A DNA stretch of 64,000 nucleotides from Peribolospora baueri (Eukaryota), in the NCBI GenBank assembly GCA_029717555.1, contig JAMDHS010000032.1, positions 124,001 to 188,000 of the forward strand, given 5' to 3'. Each line of letters opens with the position of its first letter. The first letter of the stretch is position 1. The notes under the pieces are model-generated. The model searched no databases and was not told the origin of the DNA. It saw nothing but the letters and a program-made list of their open reading frames with translations. This document shows positions 1,835 through 51,579 of the stretch, one piece after another. Both the position numbers and the translations under genes were made by a program.

Positions 1835-4690
1835 ATGGATGCCTTCCCTCCACACTCGGCGGACCTCGCCAGCTCGCCTTCGGATCGCAAGACCATGGGC
1901 ATCCCCGGCCTCGGCTCGGAGTCGACGACGATACCCAACCCCGGAGCGTCGCCCAGCAAACTCCTCAGAAAGCCCTCCTCCGGCCCCTTGTCTGGGTCGT
2001 TGGGCAAGGGCGCCTGGCGGAACTGTGAGTGGCCGACGACGTGCTCATTGCAACTACATGTACCAGCGCTCGTTCCCTCCACGCGCCCGTGTCGCGCCGC
2101 GTAAACTGGTCAGAATCGAACCTCAGCTTACGAAAAACGGACGTCGTCCATATGCGCTTTGTCTCTCATGCAATCATGTCCCGCTCCCTTTTGCCAGCGC
2201 TTCCCTCCGCCTTTCGACGCCCCCCCTTCTCTTCATCTTCTCCCTTCTCCGCCAACGACGCGTCCAAGGACGACCCCTTCTCCGTACCCCAGCGTGCCTC
2301 AGCCTCGTCGGAGGACCTCAACGCGTCCCGCGTCGCGTTTGGCAGAATTGACGTCAACAGCGGCAAGCGCGCCCCTTTCGTTGCCGCCGACGACGCTCAC
2401 GGCCTCAACACTCCTCCACCGTCCTCCTCCCCCGGTAGTCGAGCGGACCGTTCGCATCCCTCCTTTCCCTTCCCTCGCAAGGCTAGCGCCGGCTTCAGTC
2501 TGCCGCACCTGTCCTCCTCGCCTCCTGCCAGCCGACTCGAGCTCACCTCCGAGACCGCTTCGATCGAGCCAGACGAGGAAGAGGACGGCTCCGACGCTCA
2601 GCCCGCGCCGCTCTTTCTTCAGCCCTCCCACCCTTCCCGGCCTTCCCTACTCTGCGGCTCGTACGCCCACTCTCTCATCGTAGGCCGCTCCAAAAAGTCC
2701 GCCAGCAAGACCGTCTCGGGTCGCCTTCATGCCTTGCCCTCCGCCTCCGCCTCCGCCTCCTCTTCCCTGCCCGCTCGCCTGCCCGTCCGAGAGGTCAAGC
2801 TGCCCTCCTCGGCCAAACACGTATCCCGTCAGCACGCTGTGATTGAATGGGTACCCCTTCCCGGCGGCAAGGGCGAGGACGCGGGCGAGGGGAGCTTCGT
2901 TGTGCGTGTGCTGGGGCAGAACGGGTTGATTGTCGAGGGCAAGCGCCACAAGGTAGGCTCGACGATCAGGCTGGAGAACGGGACGAGGATCGATTGGTTC
3001 GGGTTCGAGACCAGCTTTGTGGTGCCTACGGGCGTGCGCGACGAGGAGGAGGAGGAGGAGGAAGAAGAGGAGGAGAAGAAGTTGAACGAACGAGAAGGTG
3101 CCATGCTCACCCCGCCGCCCAGCTCGCCCCTCGCTGCGCACTTCGAACCGCCCCGCGGAGGCCTCACCGCAAACGACAAGTCGGCCCACCGGTCCCCTTC
3201 CCCTTCCGCGGGGGAGGAAGGACGAGAAGAGCCACGCACTCCGGCAAAGCCACAATCACACAAGCGTCCCCACTCGACACTATCTCCCTCTTCCTCCGCC
3301 GCGGGAGACACGCCGCGGGCGGTGCGGGTACTCGATCTGGACGCGCTGCACGACGAGGGCATGATCCGCTCCCATCAGCCCTCGTCCGTGGCCGAGGCCG
3401 AGACCGGTGCCGCCGACGAGACGGACGATGAGGATTGGCAGAACGCTCCCTTGCGGCCCTTGCAGCTCGGCGTCAAGGTCCAGGCGGAGAGTAAGAAAAA
3501 GTCGGAAAACCAGTCTGAGGGAGAGGCGGAGCGGCGGCAGCGGAGGAGCGGCGGACGGGGCGCCGCGACGGCGGGGGAAAAGAAGAAGACGAGCGGCGGC
3601 CGCCGAGGCAGTGGCCACGACTACGATAATGATAATGATGGTGAGGCGGGTGCGGATGAGGCGGACAAGCCGGGCTTGACGGACAGGCGGGACTACGAGT
3701 ACGAAGGCGATTACGGCCCGGCCCAGTTGGACGAAGACGGCTACCTGGTCGACTTGGACGACCCTGCGTACGAGCACCTCCGACCCGCCCCCGTTGCTTC
3801 CCGCCCCGGCACTCCCTCCAACTCGGCCGAAGCCGAAGCGGACGATCTGACGTTGTCGCTCTGCTCCGAGGCGCGAGAGGCGGTGGAGAAGGTGGCACGG
3901 GCGTATGACATGGTCGGCCTGTGCGCCAACGCGCTCGTCTTCCACCGCACGGCCACCGTCGGCGCCAGCCTACTGACCGTCAGCGTGCTGGAAGCGACGC
4001 CCGGGCTCATGGCCGGTGTCGCCGGCGCCCTCAACCCGGGCTCGGAGAAGGAAAAGGAGGAGAGACGGGGGCAGGAAAGGAAGGAGGCCGACATAAACGT
4101 TGAGGACGGTCATCGTCGGCCTGGCGGAGGCAACGGCAAGGCAGCCGAGGTTTGGGAAGAGGCCAAGCGCACGGCGTGGAGGGCCAAGATCGAGGAAGTG
4201 CTCCAGCGGACCGCGTGCTTCGGCGTGATTCAGAGGGAAGGAAAAGTGAGTGAGCGGGCGGGCAGGCAGATAGGGTAGTTTCCGCACCTGCCTGCGAACG
4301 GCGGCGCTGACGAGATGATTCCCCCTTCCTCCCGATCTCCTCCTAAACCCACCCCGCACCCCCCTCCCAGGACGCCGCCGGCTTGCCTCTGGAACCTCAA
4401 TTCTACTACGACCCGGCGAACGATGACGACGAGGAACGGAAGACGAACCTGGGCTCGCTCGTCAAACCGGTGAGTTCTAGAAGACAAGGAGCGGAGAAGA
4501 CGGTTCGGGAAAAAAAAAAAAAAAAAAAAAAAAAAACTCATCCTTCCATCCATCCACCGTACCGTACCGTCTCTTTTCCCTCCTCCCCTCGCCTCGTCTC
4601 GTCTTGTCCTAGATCCGAGGCGCGCAGAAGAACCACCGCACTTCGTATTTCTTCAAGCGCCCTCGCACGCCAGGAAAGAAGCGCAAGTGA
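1835..4690 (+). CDS. TOS4: FHA-domain protein, Tos4/Plm2-like
   Basis: Predicted introns 2025-2197, 4246-4370 and 4470-4612. FHA motifs LIVGRS...KHVSRQHAVI...VLGQNG. The spliced C-terminus FGVIQREGK|DAAGLPLEPQFYYDPANDDDEERK...KP|IRGAQKNHRTSYFFKRP matches the Tos4 family tail. Confidence 0.8.
4510..4536 (+). repeat. poly(A) tract (~27 nt) in the last Tos4 intron
   Basis: Directly visible A run. Confidence 0.9.
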
Positions 4691-5187: not shown

Positions 5188-8100
5188 TCATAGGAAGCCA
5201 GACTCTTGCAATAGGCGAGCTAGAGCGAGTGACCGAGCGAGGGAACGCTGGCTGGCATCAGTCAAGGGACCGGAATTGGCGGAAGCCGCCGCGTCCGAGT
5301 AATTTGCTGACCTATGTGTCAGCGGTATCGTCGCTCACCAATCTTCTCGTCCTCCCTCTCTCTCGGCTCGAGGAGGAGGGATTGCTCATACAAGTCGGCG
5401 TCCTGCCTGCTTTCCACCAGGTTGTCCTCGATGAACTTCTGTATGCCCGGCACGGGCGTCAGGTTGTAGGGCGTGGACTGGTAGGTGACAATCTCGCGGA
5501 TGATCTCCGACGTCTTTTGGCGTTTGGCAAAGTTGATCAAGCGCTCGTCGACCTTGAGCCTGTCCGGGTTGCCGTCCTCGATGAATGTCAAGTCGGTGAG
5601 ATAGACGCCTGGAAAAAGAGAAAGATGGCCGCGTTAGTGCTCAGGACATCCCATCGCTATCGACAATGAAACGAGATACACACCCAAGAACGGGACGCAA
5701 GGCGGGTTGACGGCGTGCAAAAGCTCTCGATAGTCGGCAAAGTTTCTGGTGGACTGCATGAGCTTGTTGAGCACCTCAAAGACAGCCATGCCTCTCTGGT
5801 TCACCGCGTCCCACGTCCGCTTGAGTCGGTGGATGGGGGCGGTGTTGAGGGCGGAGACGATGGCGACCATGCTCGAAAAGTTGTTCAAAGTGCGACATCG
5901 CTAAAAAAGATAAGGTGGAGAGAAGGGAGGAAGGAGATGCGCGTGAGCCCTGGCGTGACCCCTTCCGCGATGGGAGGCCGCGGGGGTGAACTCACATCAG
6001 CGATGTGAATGAACTGCTTAATCCACGCCGCTCGCCTTCGCAAGTCTTCCTGGACGAGGATCGCCTCGGCGACCCAGCCGGTGAGCTGTGAAAAGCGAAG
6101 GAAAAGAGGGAGAAGTTGAGTCAAAAGCGAAGGAAGAGAAGTTGAGCCTGCTGCGTGCCTCGTCGCTCACCTTGTTAGAGATATTAATCATCTCTTTCAC
6201 ATTCGGACTTTCATACGCCGCATCCGGCTTGGACCAACTTTTATGCAAGCATTCCACCGGCTTGATCTTGTTATACACCCTGCTCTCCATGATCGTCAGC
6301 TGGCGGGCCATCTCGAGCGGGTCAATGTCAAGGAACTTGATCTTGCGCAGGTTCTTCGGCAGAACCGGTGCAGGGGCCGAGGTGGGAAGGACCATCTTGC
6401 GCACCATCGACTCGCCGATGCCCTGCCGGCGCTCGATGAGGCGCACGAGCTGGTTCGAGGAGAGACTCATGGACGGCGCGGGGGCCATCTTGTTCATCGC
6501 AAACGCTCGTATCCGTTCGAGCGTCGGGTCGTCTTCGCCGTCATAAAAGTACGACTCCAGCCAGGACTTGATGATGTTGAACACCCTGTCGATGCGTGAT
6601 CAAAGGTCGTCGAAGGCGAACGAATGAGCGCGCGCGTCTCCGCAAGATAGGCCACGCCGTCGCGCTTCGTCGACGATGGCGCTCATGCCAACTCACCTAA
6701 GACGGATAGGCGTCTGTTTCCTCAACGCCCAATTCTCGGCCTCGGCGTCGGACATGGCCTCGGGCGGCTTGATATCAAACCGAGCCTCAAGGAGGTCAAA
6801 GAGGTCGTCAGTGGTGGTAAAGCTACGGTAGGTGAGGAGGAAAGTGTTGTTAAAGGCCGTGTCGAGCGAGTCGTGCATCGTCAGGCGCTCCACGAGGGCC
6901 TCCAAGGTGGCGCCTTTGACGTTGCCGTCCAGGTTCATGACAATGTCGGAAGGAGCATAGTCCGGCTGGAGGTACCACGGCTTGTTGTCCACCTGTCGAT
7001 TCGTCTCCATCTTGACCGCCGCTTGCTGCGGCGCCTCGTCTCCGAAGAACTTTCTGATCTTGTTCGACCTACCAGGGGAGCGCATAGAAGAGTCTGCGAG
7101 GCGTGGATCGTAGAGATGAGATGTACATCAGCAAAAGCCGTAGCGGCGAAGCGAAGCCAGCGATAGAAAGAAGAAGAAGAAGAAGAAGAAGAGAAAAGAG
7201 AAACTCACCCTCCTCACTATCACTCCTCTCAAGCCTCCCCAAAGCCTCCTTACTCTCGTTCGCCGACGACGACGCGCCAGGGCCGGCGGGGACAGACGAG
7301 GAGGCGGCGGGGGAAGAAACGGAAGACGAAGAAGACGCGCCGGCGGCTCTTCCGAGGAACTTGGAAAGGCCGCTAGAAGGCTTGTTGTCGTTGACCGCCG
7401 TCGTGGTCATCGAGTCAAACGTCGGAGCCGCCGTCGACGAGGCGACGGCGGACGAACCGGAGTGAGTGCTCGCGGCGGCGCCGGATTGAGATCGGGGGCG
7501 AGTGAGCTGAGAAGAAGAAGCCGATGCTCCCGCCACTCCGCCCTTCTCCTTGGCACCACCACCCGCTCCGTCCCTATTCCTCGGCGGTCCGTTAGGAACA
7601 GCGATACCAGGGCCAAGAAACATGACATCGTCATCAAACTCGTCCTGCGTCTCTTCTATCTCCGCCCCCGCGTCCTCCTCGTCCACACCCCTAGCCGTAC
7701 CAGGACGACTGCCGCGAGCCCAGCTCTCCTGGCTAGCCTGACTCGGCGCGCGAGCCCTGCTGGGAAAGGGAGCGATCGGAAGCGCCTGGTTCTCGGCGGC
7801 GGCGGCGGCGGCTTCGGCTTCCTCTTGGTAGGCCCAGACGGGTTTTGTGCGCGCGCCGACGAGGCCGGGCACGCCGTGCTCGATGGCGATGACCTGCTTG
7901 GTGGAGATATCGAACAGCTCGTTCAACGCAGCCGTCAAAGCGGCCGACGCGGCCGACGCATCGAAGCAATCCTTGAGGAGCGCCGCGAGGGGCGAAAAGG
8001 AAGACGAAGACGAAGACGAGTGGAAATTGTCAGAGGCGTTCTGGACGTGAAGGAGCATGCCGGCGGAGGCGTCGTAGACCGCCTGTTTGTTGGCCTCGAC

Positions 8101-11100
8101 GGCGCGGACGAGCTGTCGGGCGCGTCCGACGCTGTACTTGTACGCCTGGATCACATCCGGGCGTATGCCCTCCGTAGAGCCCTCATCGAGGCCGTCGAGG
8201 TCAATCGACGAAGCAATGTCGATCTCCTCCACGAGGGAGAGCAAGGCGTGCACTTCGGAGAGCGTCATCCGAGCTTGGGCGAAAATGCGAGAAGCGAGGG
8301 AGGGAGGGAGCGCCGCAGGTCCGGTGTAAGGCTTCTTGTCGGCCGACGAGGAGACGTTGGTGCCGGCGACGGGCGTGTCCGCGCGACTCGCACTCTCGGC
8401 GTCACCCTCGCAGAGGCGTACGGCGCCGACGAGCGCAAAGATGTGCCGCTCGGCCTCGATGGAGGCCTCCTTGAAATCGACCTGCACCGTCTGACGGTCC
8501 AACTTGCGCGACAGCTCGTGCAGGCCATACGTCCTCAGGACGTCCTTCTCCTTTTGGTCCCTGGAGATGACAACTCTCGACGACGACGACGACGACCTGT
8601 CCCTCGTGACGAATCCGTTGCCCTTCCACGCGCCGGCCGAGCCGGCACCGTAGACGGGGAAACCGACGCCGGCGGTGCCGTTGGCAGAGCGAAGGACGCC
8701 ATGTACGCGGCGCATCCACTGGGCCGTCGAGTCGCCCGCGCTGACGGGCCCGATGGGGGAGGAGGGCGAAAGGGCGGAGCCGCCGGCGGCGGCGGCGGCG
8801 ATGGCAGCGGAGGAGCGCACGCGCTCTACCTCGGCGGCGAAGGCGTCGATGGCGCGGTCGAGTTCGAGGGCGTCTTCCTTGACCCTGTCCTTGTCCTGCT
8901 TCCAAGACGCGGCGGAGGCGGCGGAACCGTTGGCAGCGGTCGAGGAGGCGACCGAGCCGTTGGAGCTTGCGACATGAGCCTGAGGGTTAGGACTGAGGGG
9001 AGCAGAGACGGAGAGTTGATTGCCGGCGGCGCGGGAGGAGAGGACGAGCTTGGAGAGCTGGGCAGTCATGCGACGCGCCAGAGTCTGGAGCGACGGCGGA
9101 GGGGCCGTGGGTGCACCGAGCTGATCCGAGGCGGACGGCGAGGCGGTCGAGGCGGCGGCGGTGGCGGCAGCAGAGCGAATGGTAAAGCCACCGTAGGTGC
9201 CCAAGCCGGTGGCGGACGAGGAAGAGAACGACGAGGAGCCGTCTTGGCCGCGCTCGAGTTGTTGGAGGCCGTTGACGGAGAGGGCGCGCGAGGGTCGAGG
9301 AGAGCCGGCCAAGGCGGCCAAGGCGGCGAGTTCGGAAGCGGGGATGCTGAGGGTGCCGCTAGCGAACAAGAGGTTCCGAACGGCCTGCACCACGGCGGCG
9401 GCCTTTTGTTCCAACTCGGCTTCGACGGGAGCGAGATCGGCGGCGTTGGGAGGGAGCCTCGTCGGGCCACCATCAGCAGAAGCGGCGGCGGCGGCTTCGG
9501 ACTTGACGGCACCTGAAGCGACGACGGTAGTTTGGACGAGGCGCTCGACGGTGCCCTTGGCTCGATCGATGAGCTCTCCCACCGTCGTGGGCGAGGGAGG
9601 GTTCATAGCGGTCTGCAACTTGGTCGCGTCGCGCTCGGCCTTCAAGACCAACGCCGGCGGCGTCAGCGCGCCGGTCGTGCCCGCCCTTCGTCGTCGGCCG
9701 TCGAGTCCGCCGGGAGCGGTGGAAGGGAAGGGGCGCCTGGACGAGGAGGGACTCTTGGGGTGTCCGTCGGGCGGCGAGCGGAACGCGCCCAAGCTGTCGG
9801 TGGAACCTTGACGAGCGGTGGCGTATATCCTGTTGGCGGCGCGCCTGGAAGCGCCGCCGTCGGCGTCCGAGTCAGCAGACTGTTGCGAGGCAAGGGAGAT
9901 GGCGCTGGGACGTCGAACGAAAGGAACGGAGGCCGCGGTGGTGGCGGCGCCATTGGCGGTCGTCGAGGGCGTGCTCCGCCCCGAGGTGCCGTCGCGGAGC
10001 TCCTCGTAGATGTCCGACGCCTGGCTGACGGCGATGCTGCCCTGGGTGGCGTGGAAGGGCTTTCTGGCTCCAGGAGCGGCGGACGTCGCCGTCGGAGGGC
10101 TGACCATCTGTTGTCGGCGTATGGAGCCGGAGGCGGAGGTCGAGGTGGGCGACGACTCGGACACGTACACGGGGCCGGACCGACTACCGGCGACGGCGGT
10201 GTTGGTTCCGGGCTGGGTGGCGCTGGAGTGGCGAGGGCCGATGAGGGGCCTTTGGCCCATGGCGGCGGAGGAGGCCATGCTAGCACTGCCAGACCTGGAT
10301 CGGGAGGCCATGGCGGCGCTGGCGGGGTTGGAAGGTCGGGGAGTGCTTCCAAACGGCGGCTCGGACTCGTTGTCGTCGGGCGGGATGCGGGAGCGGTTGG
10401 CAAGCGAAGAGCTGGCAACGGCGCCGAAAAGGGCGGCAGAAGGGTCGTCGTCGTAGCTGTCGGTGGGGCCGAGGGGCAGCTCGTGAGCATGCTCGCTGGT
10501 TCGGGTGTTGTAGTAGAAGATCTAGGAGGGCGGTGAGAAGGAAGGAAGGAAGGAAGTGGTGAGCGAACCGGAGAGCAGCAGGTGCCGATCGAACCAAGGC
10601 CGGCCGGCCAAACGGCCACACTCACCTGTCCGCTCTCGGTCACCTTTGGCTCCCAATAATCAGCGATTCCCTTTCGGCCGCCGGCGGACGAGGCGACGGA
10701 GGTGCGCACCGTCGGAGCGGCGCGGTTGGACATGGTGCTAGCGGCCGTACCGGCGCGGGGCCTAGTACCAGGACCGGCTCTGGACGACGACATCGTCGAC
10801 CGCTCGTCATCGTCCTCGTCGGCTGCGGCGGCGGCGTCGGAGCGAGCGGCTTCGGCAAGCTGCTCGAAGATGTTCTCGCTCGACCCCACGGCGTCGGTCT
10901 CGTTGGCGAGGCTCGCGAGTGCGGCCAAGGGATCGCTGGAAGGGGCGGCTTGATCGCGGGCGGTGAGGGCCTGAAGGGCGTGGCCGCGGGCGTCGTCGGC
11001 GCCATCGTTGCGCGAAACGTCGTCGTCCCAACCGTCTATGAAGCTCGTCTCGGCGTCGTGGGAGCGAGGGAAGGGCTGGGCGTCGTCGCTGTCGTCGTAG

Positions 11101-46830: not shown

Positions 46831-49800
46831 ATGACTCCCTCAGCTACCCCTTCCGTACCCCCTCGCCGCCGGCCTTCCTATGTCTTCTGGGATCGGACGC
46901 GCAAATCTTCGGGCTCTTCCGCCCACAACACCACCGCCGTCGAACCCGCTCCGGTGAAGGCGCTCCATGACGACGATGCGCAGCAGGCTGCTCAAGACCC
47001 GGCGTTCGGCGACATGCACAAAGTTGCGTCGGCGACTGCGACTTCCGGACCGTCTGATGGTCTCGGCAACGTTGAAGGCGGCGCGAATGGGGGCAATCAG
47101 GACTTCGACGAGGAACTGGACTGGAAAGAGCGGAGGGAATTGGCCATGCAAGTGGCCGTCGGGCTGACGGCTCCGCAGGCGGCTGGAAGTGGGAATGGGG
47201 ATGAAGGCGATGGCGACTTTGGGCTGCCTCGACCTTCGTTCGACAGCTTCACATTCCCTTCCTTCGGTAGTTCGCCGCCGGCGTCGCTCCAAAATGACGT
47301 CGGCGCAGGTCAGGAAGGCTCCGCGCAGCTGGTAACGGCGGACGCTAGGGCGCACCCGCAGCTTCAACATGTCTTCGGCGTTCCTCGCCTCTTCACCGTT
47401 CCGCCGTCGCCCGAGAACCCCTCGTCGGCACGGGCTCATCGCGATCCTCGCACTAGTCGGCAAAGTGTCCTGAATCCTTCTGGGAGGGATAGGAGCGGCT
47501 CTTTGGGGCATATTGACGAGCTGCGCTCGCGAGGCGGACGCTACGAGCGCCCTCACGACGGCCGTCAAAACTCTCATGCTCCCGGCATGAGCGTCGACGG
47601 CGGTCGCCCGATCTCCCCCAGCGCTGCCAGCGTGTCCGAGACGGAGACTTTCATACACGAATTGCGCCAAGCGAAACGTCCTCACCAAGGGATAGTGGGT
47701 GCAGACGAAGCGGGCATGAGCTTCAGTGCGGACGAAGGCGACGAGTACACCGATGATGATGGCGAGTATGACATTTCGTACGCAAGCCAAACGGAGGTTG
47801 ATGTTGCCCAAGGCAAAGACACCCGAGCGTGGACGCGATATATGACGGACGAGGATGAGGATGCGACTCGATACGACTCAACTTCGCGTTCCACGCATCC
47901 CAGTGGGCTCACCCCTACCCCTGCAGATCCACACGCTGCGGTCACTCCGACGCCTGTTCAACCTTCCCCGCAGGCCAATAGGTCGCGCTCCGGTTCCTCC
48001 TCCTCTAGCCTTGGCCGTTCCGGTCAACAGCACGGCGCAAGGCAGGCGCCGGCCAACGATGAGGGCACCTCGCCGAGTGGAAGTGTGGTTGGGGATTCCA
48101 GTGGCGCCGGGAGCGTAGGCGGCAGCAACCACAAGGGAAGGTCGCGCGAGGGTAGCTCGGTCTCTGGAGCAGGAGGTAGTGGCGGTAGCGGAGCGGGAGG
48201 TGGCCGCTCCAGAAGCGGCAGTTCAGCAAGTCTGCTGAGAGAGATCGGCGTGCCCAAGAGCCAGGCGTCCTTCGTCATCGCCGTCGTGGGGCACCGCCAC
48301 GTCGGAAAGTCTACCGTGATCAGGAAGGGTCTCCGGCAATTTGGGCTAAGTAGGCCGGTCGTGCTGAGTGATCGCGGTGAGTGGCAGCGCTTCGGTTGGA
48401 ACCTACATTGTGTATATGCGCGCCCCTCATACTGTCACTTGTCTTATTTCACCCGTATGTCTGCAGTCACCTCTCATTCCACCGTCTGCGTCGTGGATTC
48501 TGAGCAGCGGACCATCGAAGTGCTCGAGATTGAAGCCTCTGTGCTACTCAGTGGCCCTGGCAAGCGTTTCGCTTGGCCCAAGTTCTTGCCTCGAATCGAT
48601 GCCGTCATTCTATGTTATGATGCTGGTAATATTGCCAGCTTCCGAGGCATGAGTGATCTTCTGGGTGAGTGTATGCTGTGGCGGGTGAGAACTTGACTCG
48701 GAGACCGGCTGAACGTGGCTTTGCGTCTCACTTGCAGAGGAGTTTGCCATGGCTAGCTTGACGACCGTCATGCTTGCTTGCAAGTCTGAGATCGTGCCCA
48801 AGGCGGTGGATCCATACTACGCTTCCGATATGGCATTTGTTTACAAGGTTGGGCTGGCAGAATGCACTGTCGAGAGCGAGGAGGGAAAAAGGAGGATGCG
48901 CGACTGCTTCTCTTATCTCGTCAAGGAGGTGGCCAAGTCCCGCAAGGGGATGGAGAAGAAAGACCACACGAACACGGCCTCTTCCCCCACGACGGGTTCG
49001 GCGTCTGGCGATGTCGGATTGAAGAGGGCGGGGGGCAAGAGCCTCAAGTCTGAGAGCTCCTTAGACTCATTGGCGTCCCAGCTGTCTAGCGCACCTTCTT
49101 CTTCTTTGCCCGTACTTCCTCGCAGCGATAGCCTTCCCCGGACTGCCGTCTCTTCCGCCCCACCAACGCTGGCAAATGCGCCCGGAGAAAGCCAGCAGGG
49201 TCAGCGAGCCACAACTTCTCCGGCAGCCGCCGCCGGTGTTCCTGGCGTTCCTGCATCTGCCTCGGACGAGACTGTCTCCGAAGATCCCTCCGCTGCTCGT
49301 GGGGCTCAGCCCAAGAAACACACCGATGCTGGATCGTCTTTGGCGGCCAGTGCCTATAGCGAGACGTCGTCTTCGGTTCACTATGGAGCAGAGCTAGGAG
49401 AGGATCCTGCTCTGAAGGAGGTCATGGAGAAGACGCGGAGGGGGATCCTCGAATCGTGAGTCTCGTATTCTTGCTCGACCATTTCGTTGGCTCGCGAACA
49501 TTTTCTCACCGTCTCTACCCCATCGCCATATTCCTCTTGGATGTGTGTACAGTCGAGCCAGCGGCGGATACGTCACCCTGGAAGAGCTTTGGGACAAGTT
49601 CTTCTTTGCTGGCGTCTCTAACAACGGTGAGCGATCTTGTGGTATGTGTCTCACCAGAGGCCGTTTATGACTCATTGTTCCGACTTCTTTCCAACAGACG
49701 AGCGCTTCGTGCATACTTTCTTGGTCTTCTATCGAGCGTTCACGCGCCCGATCGAACTTTTGAAGCAGATAGCCATTCGATTTGAGGACCTGGCTGGTCG

Positions 49801-51579
49801 AGACGAAGGTCCCGGGTCTGCTATCGTCAGATTCGCCATGATGAGGTGAATCCCCCTTTACCTTGTTGAATCGCCCATTGCCGTGTCAGCATCTGACCAA
49901 GCTTGCTTCCGCGCTCAGACTTGTAAATCTACTCGGCGACTGGCTGGAGCAGTACCCGGGTGACTTCTCGCATCCTCGGACGTACGCACTGTTGCGCCAG
50001 TTCTACGATGCCCTCTCCCGGCACCATTACACGATATACGTTGCGACTCCGCTCCTGTCCCTCATTCAAGTGGCCGAAGGCGTGCCCGATCTTGATGGTC
50101 CATGGGCAGTTTCGGCTGAGGACGAGGCACAAGTCGATGGTGTGGAGGGCGGAAAATCAGCTCCTGCTCAAAACGCGCCGTTCAAGTCGATGGGCAGCGT
50201 GGATACCCCGGCATCCATAAAGAGTGGAAGCACCGGCGGAGGCGCGAATTCCTCTTCTAATCCTCCGGCCATCTCGATGACGAATGCTGATCCGGGCAGC
50301 GAGCAATCGAGAGCTGCGTCGCGCACGACGTCTCACGGTTCTTCATCTTCTGGGCATTTAAACAAGCCCGGAGGGGACTTGTCCGCAGCTCACGGCCGGG
50401 CGCGGAGCGCATCGGACGTCACGAACGCGACCGGAGAGGGTGCAGCCAACCGCGCCTTGAGCTTCTTCGTCGGTAGCGGTTCATACCTTAGCCAGAGCAC
50501 AGGCGTTGAAGTTGCTTTGAGGGGTATCCACTCCAAGATCTCCGACGCGCTGGCTTCGGTTCCCGAGGAAGCCATCGTCACTCAACTGAATAGGATTGAG
50601 TGGGAGCTCTTCATGGCTATCAGTCCGAGGGATTTACTTCGCCATGTTCTCGTCCCACGCGACAAGCGCGCGCAGAATGGCCCGGTGGCAAGGTCCATCG
50701 CTCATTTCAACTATGTGTCGTCTTGGTGAGTGACATGAATTGGTCACTTCAGCTCCATAGCAGATCGTTGATTGATACTTTCCGCGTTTCCCGCTGCTCC
50801 AGGGTGTGCACGATCATCCTCGCCCAGTCCAAGACGAAGTCTCGCGCGCGTATGCTGGAGAAATTCATGCACATTGCCCAGCTTCTGCGGGTAGAAAATA
50901 ATTACAACACACTGATGGCCGTCCTGGCGGGCTTGAGCAGCGCCTCAATCCATCGTCTCAAGGCGACACGTGAACTGATCCAGGGCAAGCCTGTCAACAA
51001 GGTGTACCAGAGCCTCTGTAGGCTGATGCACCCCGATCGTAGCTTTGCCGCGTACAGGCTGGCGCTCAGCAATTCGGAGGGTCGCACGGTTCCTTATCTG
51101 TGAGACATCTCGACGCCTTTTACAGTCCTATACCGTGCATGGCTGACTGTCTCTGCTTTGGCTCCAACCTGCTTCCTCATTCCACCTCTCAGGGGTGTGC
51201 ATCTGCAAGACGTGCTGTCCATCTCGGATGGCAACAAGTCCGTACGTCTCTCGGACGGCAACATCCATTGGCGCAAGTTCAGTCTTATGGACGAGGCCGT
51301 CATGGCTATTGTCCAGTGCCAGACATACTCGAAGACGCCGCGCAGGGATCAGTCCATCGAACGGCTGATCATGGACGTGCCAGTCATGGACGAGGAGGTG
51401 AGCTGTACGGACGCCGGGACTGGCGAGCATTTCGCAATCGACTCACTGATCTGGATGGTGGAGCACCGTCCTTCCGCGTACCGCAGACCCTATACGAGCA
51501 CTCACTCGCTGTCGAACCGCGCCAATCGGCCAATACGACCCCGTCGAACAAGCTCAAGAAGTTGATGGGCGGCAACTGA
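46831..51579 (+). CDS. RasGEF (REM + CDC25 domains) fused to an N-terminal degenerate Ras-like GTPase domain
   Basis: P-loop IAVVGHRHVGKSTVI, IDAVILCYD...SF and VMLACKSE. REM: TLEELWDKF...FVHTFLVFYRAF...LGDWLEQYPGDF. CDC25: IVTQLNRIEWELF...HFNYVSSW...NNYNTLMAVLAGLSSASIHRL...VPYL|GVHLQD. Confidence 0.88.

What the first reader, a model, noticed from the sequence alone, without database searches (positions are those of the whole stretch)
48271..51579. Ras-like pseudo-GTPase domain fused in cis to a RasGEF
Seen in sequence: after removing introns 48377-48466 and 48665-48737, one reading frame carries a small-GTPase-like domain, followed through further introns by REM and CDC25 domains. G1 is intact (GHRHVGKS). 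The G3 DxxG position reads VLEIEA, G4 NKxD reads ACKSE, and G5 ETSAK reads ECTV. Known: DxxG and NKxD are needed for Mg/GTP switching and guanine specificity, and SOS-type GEFs are activated allosterically by Ras bound at the REM/CDC25 interface. Inference: this is a tethered, probably catalytically dead Ras-like module that could occupy the allosteric or catalytic site, sense nucleotide, or autoinhibit the GEF. Similar architectures may exist in other fungi, but I know of no established mechanism.
Basis: partly seen in the sequence, partly recalled or inferred. Interest (0 to 1): 0.75.

Follow-up and report, generated by a model that had tools for sequence, protein, structure and literature searches.

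The report
Ras-like domain fused to fungal RasGEF
This is one fungal gene in which a degenerate Ras-like GTP-binding domain sits in front of a Ras activator (RasGEF), an arrangement already described in fungi whose working is still unknown.

Summary
A single + strand gene (model 46831-51579, 9 exons, 1361 aa) encodes a disordered N-terminus, a ~175-aa Ras-family-like domain (48253-48943), then REM and CDC25 domains.

The domain is a small-GTPase fold. The profile's best solved match is KRas (E 2.6e-6). An AlphaFold model of an 81%-identical orthologue has pLDDT 85 and matches Rab/Ras structures at Z 16-17.

In 107 related domains the P-loop is essentially invariant. The DxxG glycine and catalytic Gln are absent in all 107. 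G4 is CKS[D/E].

The fusion is not new. Relatives come from Basidiomycota, Mucoromycota and chytrids, and 39 of 42 distant relatives scanned carry RasGEF downstream. Martin-Vicente et al. 2019, citing van Dam 2009, describe fungal "RasGRP-class" RasGEFs (A. fumigatus GefC) with an N-terminal "Miro" domain.

Most likely reading: the domain binds nucleotide, does not hydrolyse it, and regulates or targets the GEF. No RNA run was listed.

Verdict: a new member of a known kind, of modest interest.

The parts
46831..51579 (+). Whole coding region of the RasGEF gene: 9 exons, 1361 aa. Exons are 46831-48376, 48467-48664, 48738-49455, 49553-49626, 49698-49845, 49919-50725, 50803-51099, 51193-51397 and 51487-51579.
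   Evidence: The splice model has a CDS length divisible by 3 and a single terminal stop. Junctions are contiguous with orthologues. tblastn of 8 orthologues maps them onto these exons.
46831..48252 (+). N-terminal low-complexity, probably disordered region (aa 1-474). The start codon is uncertain.
   Evidence: The frame is open from 46474 and the first ATG is at 46831. Pfam finds no family. Orthologues align only from about aa 373 onward.
48253..48943 (+). Atypical Ras-family-like G domain (aa 475-650), interrupted by introns 1 and 2.
   Evidence: It is 81% identical (148 of 182 aligned positions) to the P0013 segment that was folded. Profile against PDB: KRas at E 2.6e-6. AF2 pLDDT 85. Foldseek and VIA matches are Rab and Ras.
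48289..48312 (+). G1 / P-loop, GHRHVGKS.
   Evidence: Coordinates. Across 107 related domains the two glycines are kept in 107 of 107, Lys in 106 of 107 and Ser/Thr in 107 of 107.
48377..48466 (+). Intron 1 (90 nt, GT..AG). It is in frame and has no stop. It lies in the switch I loop.
   Evidence: Orthologues have no insertion at this point.
48523..48540 (+). G3-equivalent at the end of strand beta-3: LEIEAS. The Asp57 position is Glu here. There is no Gly at +3 and no Gln at +4.
   Evidence: Coordinates. Family counts: Asp in 83 of 107 and Glu in 6 of 107. Gly at +3 and Gln at +4 are absent from the residue tallies listed for the 107.
48565..48591 (+). Conserved RFAWPKFLP loop, in the place of switch II / helix alpha-2.
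   Evidence: Trp is kept in 88 of 107 and Pro in 95 of 107. The AF2 models show only a 3-4-residue helical turn and no full alpha-2 helix between beta-3 and beta-4.
48665..48737 (+). Intron 2 (73 nt, GT..AG).
48776..48790 (+). G4-equivalent, ACKSE, in the place of NKxD.
   Evidence: The HMMER alignment to KRas puts C on N116, K on K117 and E on D119. Family counts: Cys in 98 of 107 and Lys in 105 of 107. The acidic position is E34/D7 in close relatives and D45/E2 in distant ones.
48860..48871 (+). G5-equivalent, ECTV, in the place of ETSAK.
48944..49562 (+). Low-complexity linker between the G domain and REM. It contains intron 3 (49456-49552).
   Evidence: Exon 3 is one open frame running from the second half of the G domain through the linker. 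The equivalent stretch has pLDDT below 50 in the orthologue model.
49563..50105 (+). REM (RasGEF_N) domain. It contains introns 4 (49627-49697) and 5 (49846-49918).
   Evidence: Pfam RasGEF_N at E 5e-6 on exon 5 and on full orthologues. It is helical with high pLDDT in the orthologue model.
50106..50558 (+). Low-complexity linker between REM and CDC25.
   Evidence: It aligns poorly among orthologues. The equivalent stretch has pLDDT below 50.
50559..51522 (+). CDC25-homology (RasGEF) catalytic domain. It contains introns 6 (50726-50802), 7 (51100-51192) and 8 (51398-51486).
   Evidence: Pfam RasGEF at E 8e-27 on exon 7, plus flanking pieces. Profile against PDB: RasGRP1 at E 1.4e-37, RasGRP4, RasGRF1, yeast Cdc25 and SOS1.

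Best explanation
The locus is one gene for a fungal 'RasGRP-class' (GefC-type) Ras guanine-nucleotide exchange factor. Its parts, in order, are a disordered N-terminus, an atypical Ras-family G domain, a linker, REM, a second linker and the CDC25 catalytic domain. Shown here: the fusion, the fold, the motif pattern and the wide fungal distribution. Inferred: (1) The G domain still binds a nucleotide, probably guanine. The P-loop is invariant, and the Lys and the acidic residue of G4 are kept. (2) It cannot hydrolyse or switch in the canonical way. The Gly12 position is mostly non-Gly, there is no DxxG glycine and no catalytic Gln, and helix alpha-2 / switch II is replaced by a conserved Trp-Pro loop. 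(3) It therefore acts as a non-cycling protein-interaction module that regulates or localises the CDC25 module of the same chain, using the strongly conserved switch-side face. The CDC25 part looks catalytically ordinary and probably acts on a Ras-subfamily GTPase. My odds: identity and architecture 0.9; nucleotide binding without canonical hydrolysis 0.55; control of the GEF in cis 0.35.
For: One gene: the splice model has a single stop, exon 3 spans the G-domain half plus the linker in one open frame, and junctions are contiguous with orthologues. Of 41 relatives from the first search, 35 carry RasGEF in their precomputed Pfam lists. Of 42 distant relatives scanned, 39 carry RasGEF and 41 carry RasGEF_N, all C-terminal to the domain. 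Fold: KRas at E 2.6e-6 over the full length, pLDDT 85, Foldseek E 4e-10, VIA Z 17.3-16.0. Pfam Ras reaches E<=1e-3 in 16 of 42 distant relatives, up to 46 bits. Motifs in 107 domains: P-loop G 107, G 107, K 106, S/T 107. At the Gly12 position the eight commonest residues (97 of 107) are all non-Gly. G3 Asp is kept in 83. Gly at +3 and Gln at +4 do not appear in the listed tallies. G4 Lys is kept in 105. Trp-Pro is kept in 88 and 95. The CDC25 domain is closest to RasGRP1, E 1.4e-37. Literature: GefC of A. fumigatus is a RasGRP-class RasGEF with an N-terminal 'Miro' domain, said to be fungus-specific; its deletion delays germination by 1 h and raises Calcofluor and Congo red sensitivity (PMC6522298, passages). 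Precedent for GTPase-like domains in cis to a regulator: deleting the pseudoGTPase domains of p190RhoGAP lowers GAP activity (PMC5593906, abstract in the listing). The AGAP1 GTP-binding-protein-like domain is a structural neighbour at Z 16.6. Weak hint of packing: the fold of the whole G-REM-CDC25 unit of orthologue P0018 has pTM 0.56 with 280 of 886 residues below pLDDT 50. That is more than I estimate for REM+CDC25 alone, about 0.47 by my own arithmetic, not a tool output.
Against: There is no biochemical or RNA evidence. In this window's protein both key acidic residues are Glu rather than Asp: the G3 Asp position and the G4 Asp position. That could weaken Mg2+ and guanine binding, so this lineage may bind nothing. 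G5 is not conserved. The models are of orthologues (81% and 77% identical over the domain), not of the window's own protein. No inter-domain error map or coordinates were available, so where or whether the domain docks is unknown; the pTM argument is rough. Orthology to A. fumigatus GefC rests on the paper's description and on ESM Atlas cluster summaries, not on an alignment. No ascomycete sequence could be fetched.
Confidence: 0.6

Rival explanations
1. The domain is a nucleotide-free pseudoGTPase. It binds nothing and serves only as a rigid scaffold or interaction surface. The P-loop is kept for structural reasons.
For: In this window the G3 Asp is Glu, G4 reads CKSE and G5 reads ECTV. DxxG is lost in the whole family. 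The best Foldseek matches include nucleotide-free, GEF-bound Rab35. The nucleotide-free pseudoGTPase domain of AAGAB is a structural neighbour at Z 13.0 (its class is taken from the abstract in the listing).
Against: GxxxxGK[S/T] is invariant in 107 of 107 domains from chytrids to smut-like fungi. G4 Lys is kept in 105 of 107, and an acidic residue at the Asp119 position in 88 of 107. Such constraint is hard to explain without a ligand. From recall, known nucleotide-free pseudoGTPases have lost the P-loop.
Confidence: 0.25
2. The domain is a working, cycling GTPase with non-canonical catalysis. It could be loaded by its own CDC25 domain or switched off by a dedicated GAP, making the protein a self-contained switch.
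For: The P-loop and the K/D of G4 are conserved. From recall, some true GTPases lack Gln61 (Rap) or have odd G4/G5 motifs (IFT22). IFT22 is a structural neighbour at Z 13.8 and a feature look-alike.
Against: No Gly is listed at the DxxG position in 107 domains, and switch II / alpha-2 is replaced by a Trp-Pro loop. A gamma-phosphate-driven switch II change is therefore unlikely. The Gly12 position is mostly Arg, Lys or Ala.
Confidence: 0.1
3. These are two separate genes, a small GTPase-like gene and a RasGEF, wrongly joined by my model and by automated gene predictions.
For: No RNA evidence was available. The fused state in other genomes rests on gene predictions. A few database entries hold the domain alone (P0034 at 326 aa, P0038 at 276 aa).
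Against: Exon 3 is a single open frame from the G domain into the linker. Fused models recur in three fungal phyla. The short entries look like fragments on short contigs.
Confidence: 0.03
4. The domain is a true Miro-type (mitochondrial Rho) module that links the GEF to mitochondria, as the label in the literature suggests.
For: PMC6522298 calls the N-terminal domain of GefC a Miro domain and suggests a mitochondrial role.
Against: Pfam gives weak or significant Ras (PF00071) hits and no Roc/Miro (PF08477) or EF-hand hit on 7 orthologues at E<=5 or on 42 distant relatives at E<=1e-3. There is only one G domain. Miro cGTPase structures score lower (Z 14.1-14.4) than Rab and Ras (Z 16-17). The label most likely comes from the old name of PF08477 (recall).
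Confidence: 0.02

Closest known systems
Fungal RasGRP-class RasGEF with an N-terminal 'Miro' domain (A. fumigatus GefC, Afu1g04700; van Dam et al. 2009 as cited in PMC6522298)
   Same: The order of parts is the same: small-GTPase-like domain, REM, CDC25. The CDC25 domain is nearest to RasGRP. The family is restricted to fungi. The nearest ESM Atlas clusters are mainly ascomycete 'Ras GEF' proteins with RasGEF, RasGEF_N and Ras in 55-80% of members.
   Different: In the smut-like lineage the G domain has drifted below Pfam's threshold. None of the 41 relatives has PF00071 in its precomputed Pfam list, so annotations miss the domain. G4 has Asp replaced by Glu, and this window also has Glu at the G3 Asp position. 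The N-terminal extension is longer. Orthology to GefC was not shown by alignment here.
p190RhoGAP pseudoGTPase domains (PMC5593906) and the AGAP1 GTP-binding-protein-like domain
   Same: A GTPase-fold domain with degenerate motifs lies in cis to a small-GTPase regulator. Deleting the p190 domains lowers GAP activity (abstract). The AGAP1 domain is a structural neighbour at Z 16.6.
   Different: Those partners are GAPs, not a GEF. The p190 pseudoGTPase domains bind no nucleotide (abstract, and recall). Here the P-loop is intact. There is no detectable specific sequence relationship.
SOS allosteric Ras site (Ras-GTP bound between REM and CDC25; recalled knowledge, with SOS1 structures among the matches)
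   Same: A REM+CDC25 module whose activity could depend on a second Ras-like molecule.
   Different: In SOS the second Ras acts in trans and cycles. Here the Ras-like unit is tethered and probably does not cycle. The CDC25 domain is closer to RasGRP1 (E 1.4e-37) than to SOS1 (E 3e-19). No allosteric site was tested.
Roco proteins with RasGEF domains (Dictyostelium GbpC; recalled, with the listing of PMC1420674)
   Same: A Ras-like (Roc) domain and a RasGEF in one polypeptide.
   Different: GbpC has Roc-COR, kinase, LRR and cGMP-binding domains. None of these is present here. The Roc domain of LRRK2 scores only Z 12.9.

Membership tests
Ras-superfamily small GTPase (fold) | Six-stranded alpha/beta G-domain fold | tested here: met
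   AF2 model of the orthologue segment: pLDDT 85.2, with the strand and helix order of a G domain. Foldseek E 4e-10 and TM 0.71. VIA Z 17.3, rmsd 2.8 over 155 residues.
Ras-superfamily small GTPase (active enzyme) | G1 GxxxxGK[S/T] | tested here: met
   GHRHVGKS at 48289-48312. The motif is invariant in the family.
Ras-superfamily small GTPase (active enzyme) | G3 DxxG and the catalytic Gln | tested here: not met
   The window reads LEIEAS-V-L. Gly at +3 and Gln at +4 do not appear in the listed tallies for 107 domains. Asp is kept in 83 of 107 but is Glu here.
Ras-superfamily small GTPase (active enzyme) | G4 [NT]KxD | tested here: not met
   The window reads CKSE. Lys is kept, Asn is Cys and Asp is Glu. 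Most distant relatives read CKSD.
Ras-superfamily small GTPase (active enzyme) | G5 [ST]A[K] | tested here: not met
   ECTV aligned to ETSAK.
Ras-superfamily small GTPase (active enzyme) | Binds and hydrolyses GTP | not testable with these tools
   This needs recombinant protein.
CDC25-family RasGEF | REM (RasGEF_N) plus CDC25-homology domain | tested here: met
   Pfam on exons: RasGEF_N at E 5e-6 and RasGEF at E 8e-27. The orthologue profile hits RasGRP1, RasGRP4, RasGRF1, Cdc25, Epac2 and SOS1.
Fungal RasGRP-class / GefC-type RasGEF | Small-GTPase-like domain N-terminal to REM and CDC25 | tested here: met
   The class is described in PMC6522298.
Fungal RasGRP-class / GefC-type RasGEF | CDC25 domain groups with RasGRP rather than with the SH3 or LTE classes | tested here: inconclusive
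   The best solved match is RasGRP1 at E 1.4e-37, against yeast Cdc25 at 6e-25 and SOS1 at 3e-19. One relative is named RAS guanyl-releasing protein 1. No tree with GefC, Cdc25, Bud5 and Lte1 was built.
Fungal RasGRP-class / GefC-type RasGEF | Orthology to Afu1g04700 and its N. crassa and C. neoformans homologues | not tested
Indirect support only: Tremellomycete members (Kwoniella, Cryptotrichosporon) and ascomycete Atlas clusters with the same Pfam set.
Miro (mitochondrial Rho) | Two GTPase domains flanking EF-hands, with a C-terminal membrane anchor | tested here: not met
   There is one G domain. No EF-hand or Roc hit appears in Pfam scans of the exons, 7 orthologues and 42 relatives. The C-terminus is the CDC25 domain.
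PseudoGTPase (sense of Stiegler and Boggon; the classification is recalled, the paper was not held) | G-domain fold lacking the catalytic motifs | tested here: met
   The fold is met and G3, G4 and G5 are degenerate. Which class it belongs to, nucleotide-binding or not, cannot be tested here.

The most novel reading that the evidence does not exclude
The tethered Ras-like domain is a permanently nucleotide-loaded, non-hydrolysing 'built-in Ras'. It docks through its conserved switch-side face and Trp-Pro loop onto the REM/CDC25 module of the same chain. There it would either supply in cis the allosteric activation that SOS gets from Ras-GTP in trans, or plug the catalytic site as a pseudo-substrate until a signal releases it. 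On this reading the device dates from before the split of chytrids, Mucoromycota and Dikarya.
Probability: 0.2. Interest if true: 0.6.

Novelty: new member of a known kind. Interest (0 to 1): 0.3.

Why it matters
Ras signalling controls polarity, morphogenesis and virulence in fungi. RasGEFs with fungus-specific features have been proposed as drug targets (PMC6522298). This class of RasGEF carries a G domain of unknown role. The comparison here shows three things. The domain is Ras/Rab-like rather than Miro-like. Its loss of the DxxG glycine and the catalytic Gln is ancient and family-wide. Its P-loop has stayed invariant. Together these make a simple, testable prediction: the domain binds nucleotide without cycling, and controls the GEF. 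The comparison also shows that annotations of smut-like fungi miss the domain. None of the 41 relatives carries a Ras Pfam hit in its precomputed list.

Tried and rejected
1. RNA evidence: the look-up of sequencing runs listed no RNA holder.
The queue was full each time, and then the tool was declared unavailable. Nothing was folded.
4. No whole genome is held for this window, so the RasGEF paralogues of the genome could not be counted.
5. Pfam on the window's own exon pieces does not recognise the G domain beyond weak P-loop hits. This is because the domain is split over three exons and is divergent.
6. The 'Big Ras GTPase' family (PMC8146680, passages) was considered and rejected. It has G1-G3 and G5 conserved, is mainly found in Sordariomycetes, and no RasGEF link is described.
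7. Neurospora 'rasgef' NCU09758 (PMC12525002, passages) was rejected as a relative. The authors describe it as having all the domains of CDC25, and no GTPase domain is mentioned.
8. Literature searches found no paper that joins 'pseudoGTPase' with 'RasGEF' (0 papers). Searches for CDC25 phylogeny, U. maydis Lte1/Ras3 and 'Ras-like domain' with RasGEF gave nothing on this gene in smut fungi. PMC3141262 (passages) and PMC13393502 (passages) do not mention the architecture. van Dam 2009 and Stiegler and Boggon 2020 were not held, so both are cited second-hand or from recall.
9. Attempts to fetch an ascomycete member failed: the A3 profile search, the whole-P0133 search and 30 cluster look-ups.
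10. The fold of the whole unit gives no inter-domain map, so it cannot say where the G domain sits.

Full report
OBSERVATION. The stretch 48271-51579 lies inside one + strand gene. Reading the DNA and testing splice sites gives nine exons: 46831-48376, 48467-48664, 48738-49455, 49553-49626, 49698-49845, 49919-50725, 50803-51099, 51193-51397 and 51487-51579. All introns are GT..AG. The CDS length is divisible by three and has a single terminal stop, giving 1361 aa. The motif strings GHRHVGKS, LEIEAS, ACKSE and ECTV are present at 48289-48312, 48523-48540, 48776-48790 and 48860-48871. All eight exon junctions are contiguous, without indels, against orthologues. The frame is open upstream to 46474 and the first ATG is at 46831. 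About 480 low-complexity residues therefore precede the domain. The start codon is the least certain part of the model, because orthologues align only from about residue 373.

WHAT THE DOMAINS ARE. Pfam on single exons finds RasGEF_N (E 5e-6) and RasGEF (E 8e-27, plus flanking pieces). On the N-terminal domain it finds nothing beyond weak P-loop hits. The window's own G domain is split over three exons, and I could not hand a joined sequence to the tools, so I worked through orthologues.

A search with the read-through piece 48226-48663 returned 41 proteins. Nearly all that carry a name come from smut-like basidiomycetes: Ustilago, Sporisorium, Moesziomyces, Pseudozyma, Testicularia, Tilletiaria, Ceraceosorus, Meira and Exobasidium. 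Of the 41, 35 have RasGEF in their precomputed Pfam list and none has Ras.

A profile of 18 orthologous domain segments (A1) matches KRas over its full length at E 2.6e-6. Rab35, Gem and EhRabX3 follow. An AlphaFold2 model of one segment (P0013 959-1142) has pLDDT 85.2 and pTM 0.85, with the strand and helix order of a G domain. That segment is 81% identical to the window's domain. Foldseek finds Rab35, Rab11, KRas, HRas and Rheb at E 4e-10 to 3e-8. VIA-align against 48,161 chains gives Z 17.3-16.0 for Rab3C, Rab27a, RASL12, DiRas1, the AGAP1 GTP-binding-protein-like domain, NRAS, Gem, MRAS and Rheb. Miro C-terminal GTPase domains score Z 14.1-14.4.

The CDC25 domain is ordinary. Its profile matches RasGRP1 (E 1.4e-37), RasGRP4, RasGRF1, RasGRP2, yeast Cdc25 (6e-25), Epac2 and SOS1 (3e-19).

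HOW FAR THE FUSION REACHES. The exhaustive profile search with A1 found 479 cluster representatives at E<=1e-3, of which 151 were at E<=1e-10. I scanned 42 long, distant ones. RasGEF is present in 39 and RasGEF_N in 41, always C-terminal to the domain. Pfam Ras reaches E<=1e-3 in 16 of them, and 9 reach the gathering score, up to 46.3 bits.

Names for 30 looked-up representatives, plus two further searches, cover the following groups.
- Pucciniomycotina: Rhodotorula, Rhodosporidiobolus, Sporobolomyces, Atractiella, Phakopsora, Melampsora, Mixia.
- Agaricomycotina: Heliocybe, Neolentinus, Gloeophyllum, Serpula, Auricularia, Exidia, Serendipita, Rhizoctonia, Kwoniella, Cryptotrichosporon.
- Wallemia.
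- Many Mucorales, plus Mortierellomycotina and Glomeromycotina.
- Chytrids: Borealophlyctis, Geranomyces, Polyrhizophydium.

No ascomycete sequence surfaced in these word-limited searches. However, the ESM Atlas look-up of the whole Apophysomyces protein gave three nearest clusters (score 0.97; 251, 104 and 157 members). In these, RasGEF and RasGEF_N are near-universal, Ras is on 55-80% of members, and the commonest phylum is Ascomycota.

ALREADY IN PRINT. Martin-Vicente et al. 2019 (PMC6522298; I read passages) sort the four RasGEFs of A. fumigatus into SH3, RasGRP and LTE classes. [quoted passage not shown] 2009, a paper I could not see. GefC (Afu1g04700) has homologues in N. crassa and C. 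neoformans. Its deletion delays germination by one hour and increases sensitivity to Calcofluor white and Congo red. The authors guess that it serves RasB-type Ras proteins. No role for the N-terminal domain is given.

The window's gene fits this class by architecture and by the RasGRP-like CDC25 domain. I did not show orthology to GefC by alignment. The 'Miro' label is not supported by my tests. Pfam gives Ras hits and no Roc/Miro or EF-hand hits. There is a single G domain, and Ras and Rab structures score above Miro.

MOTIF PATTERN ACROSS THE FAMILY. I aligned 107 domains to the A1 profile. Of these, 41 are at least 60% identical to P0013 and 66 are more distant.
- The P-loop is essentially invariant: Gly 107, Gly 107, Lys 106 and Ser/Thr 107, each out of 107.
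- The Ras Gly12 position is mostly Arg, Lys or Ala. The eight commonest residues, covering 97 of 107, are all non-Gly.
- The G3 Asp is kept in 83 of 107. It is Glu in 6, including this window.
- Gly three residues after it, and Gln four after it, do not appear in the listed tallies of the 107.
- Between strands 3 and 4, where Ras has switch II and helix alpha-2, the models show only a 3-4-residue helical turn and no full helix. The family instead keeps a Trp-Pro motif (Trp 88, Pro 95 of 107).
- G4 is Cys-Lys-Ser-Asp in most distant members. Cys is kept in 98 and Lys in 105. The acidic position is D45/E2 in distant members, and Cys-Lys-Ser-Glu predominates in the smut-like group (E34/D7).
- G5 keeps only the Glu (80 of 107).

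The window's lineage adds two Asp-to-Glu changes.

MECHANISM. Shown: the fusion, the fold, the motif pattern and the distribution. Inferred: an invariant P-loop, with the Lys and acidic residue of G4 kept over this evolutionary span, argues that a nucleotide, probably guanine, is still bound. The loss of Gly12, of the DxxG glycine, of the catalytic Gln and of helix alpha-2 argues against hydrolysis and against a canonical gamma-phosphate-driven switch. The most conserved surface is the one corresponding to switch I, the interswitch strands and the Trp-Pro loop. In Ras this face meets GEFs and effectors (recalled knowledge). I therefore favour a non-cycling, nucleotide-loaded interaction module that regulates or targets the CDC25 module in cis.

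There are precedents for GTPase-like domains in cis to a regulator. The p190RhoGAP pseudoGTPase domains, when deleted, lower GAP activity (PMC5593906, abstract in the listing). The AGAP1 domain is a structural neighbour; its allosteric effect on the ArfGAP is recalled, not read.

I could not test docking, because complex prediction was never available. A single-chain fold of the whole G-REM-CDC25 unit of orthologue P0018 (A4, 38 sequences) gave mean pLDDT 72.8 and pTM 0.56, with 280 of 886 residues below pLDDT 50. By my own rough arithmetic, REM+CDC25 alone would give about 0.47. The G domain may therefore be placed with moderate confidence. Without an error map this is only a hint, and it says nothing about where the domain sits.

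RIVALS.
- A nucleotide-free scaffold (0.25). This is favoured by the two Glu substitutions in this lineage and disfavoured by the invariant P-loop.
- A cycling GTPase with unusual catalysis (0.1).
- Two genes wrongly joined (0.03). This is disfavoured by the open frame of exon 3 across the domain-linker boundary and by fused models in three phyla.
- A true Miro-type mitochondrial module (0.02).

VERDICT. The thing itself is an orthologue of a published, pan-fungal class of RasGEF, so it is a new member of a known kind.
- the domain is Ras/Rab-like, not Miro-like;
- its catalytic degeneracy is ancient while its P-loop is invariant;
- a Trp-Pro loop replaces switch II;
- annotations of smut-like fungi miss the domain.

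The mechanism remains open and is easy to test at the bench.

Noticed in passing
window 5300-10521, minus strand: A second RasGEF gene lies about 40 kb upstream. Pfam RasGEF hits fall on 6021-6599 (E 3e-12) and 5643-5894 (E 1e-27). A long ORF at 7072-10521 has a weak DUF7783 hit. In database proteins that domain co-occurs with SH3-class RasGEFs. It is probably the Cdc25/SH3-class paralogue.
   Followed up: partly
window 48377-48466: Intron 1 is 90 nt long, in frame and free of stop codons. If retained it would insert 30 residues into the switch I loop of the Ras-like domain. My rough estimate is that about one intron in ten would have these properties by chance, so this is probably coincidence. 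No RNA data were available to check.
   Followed up: no
window 2029-4275, plus strand: A long open frame of 749 aa has a Pfam FHA domain hit at E 3e-6. It is an unrelated neighbouring gene.
   Followed up: no
window 46840-47877, minus strand: A 345-aa stop-to-stop frame lies antisense to the N-terminal low-complexity exon. It is most likely a by-product of the GC-rich coding sequence on the other strand.
   Followed up: no
related proteins P0042 (2731 aa) and P0044 (2752 aa): In these two representatives the Ras-like domain lies at about residue 1850 of very long gene models. They may be merged gene predictions or may carry extra N-terminal parts. I did not examine them.
   Followed up: no
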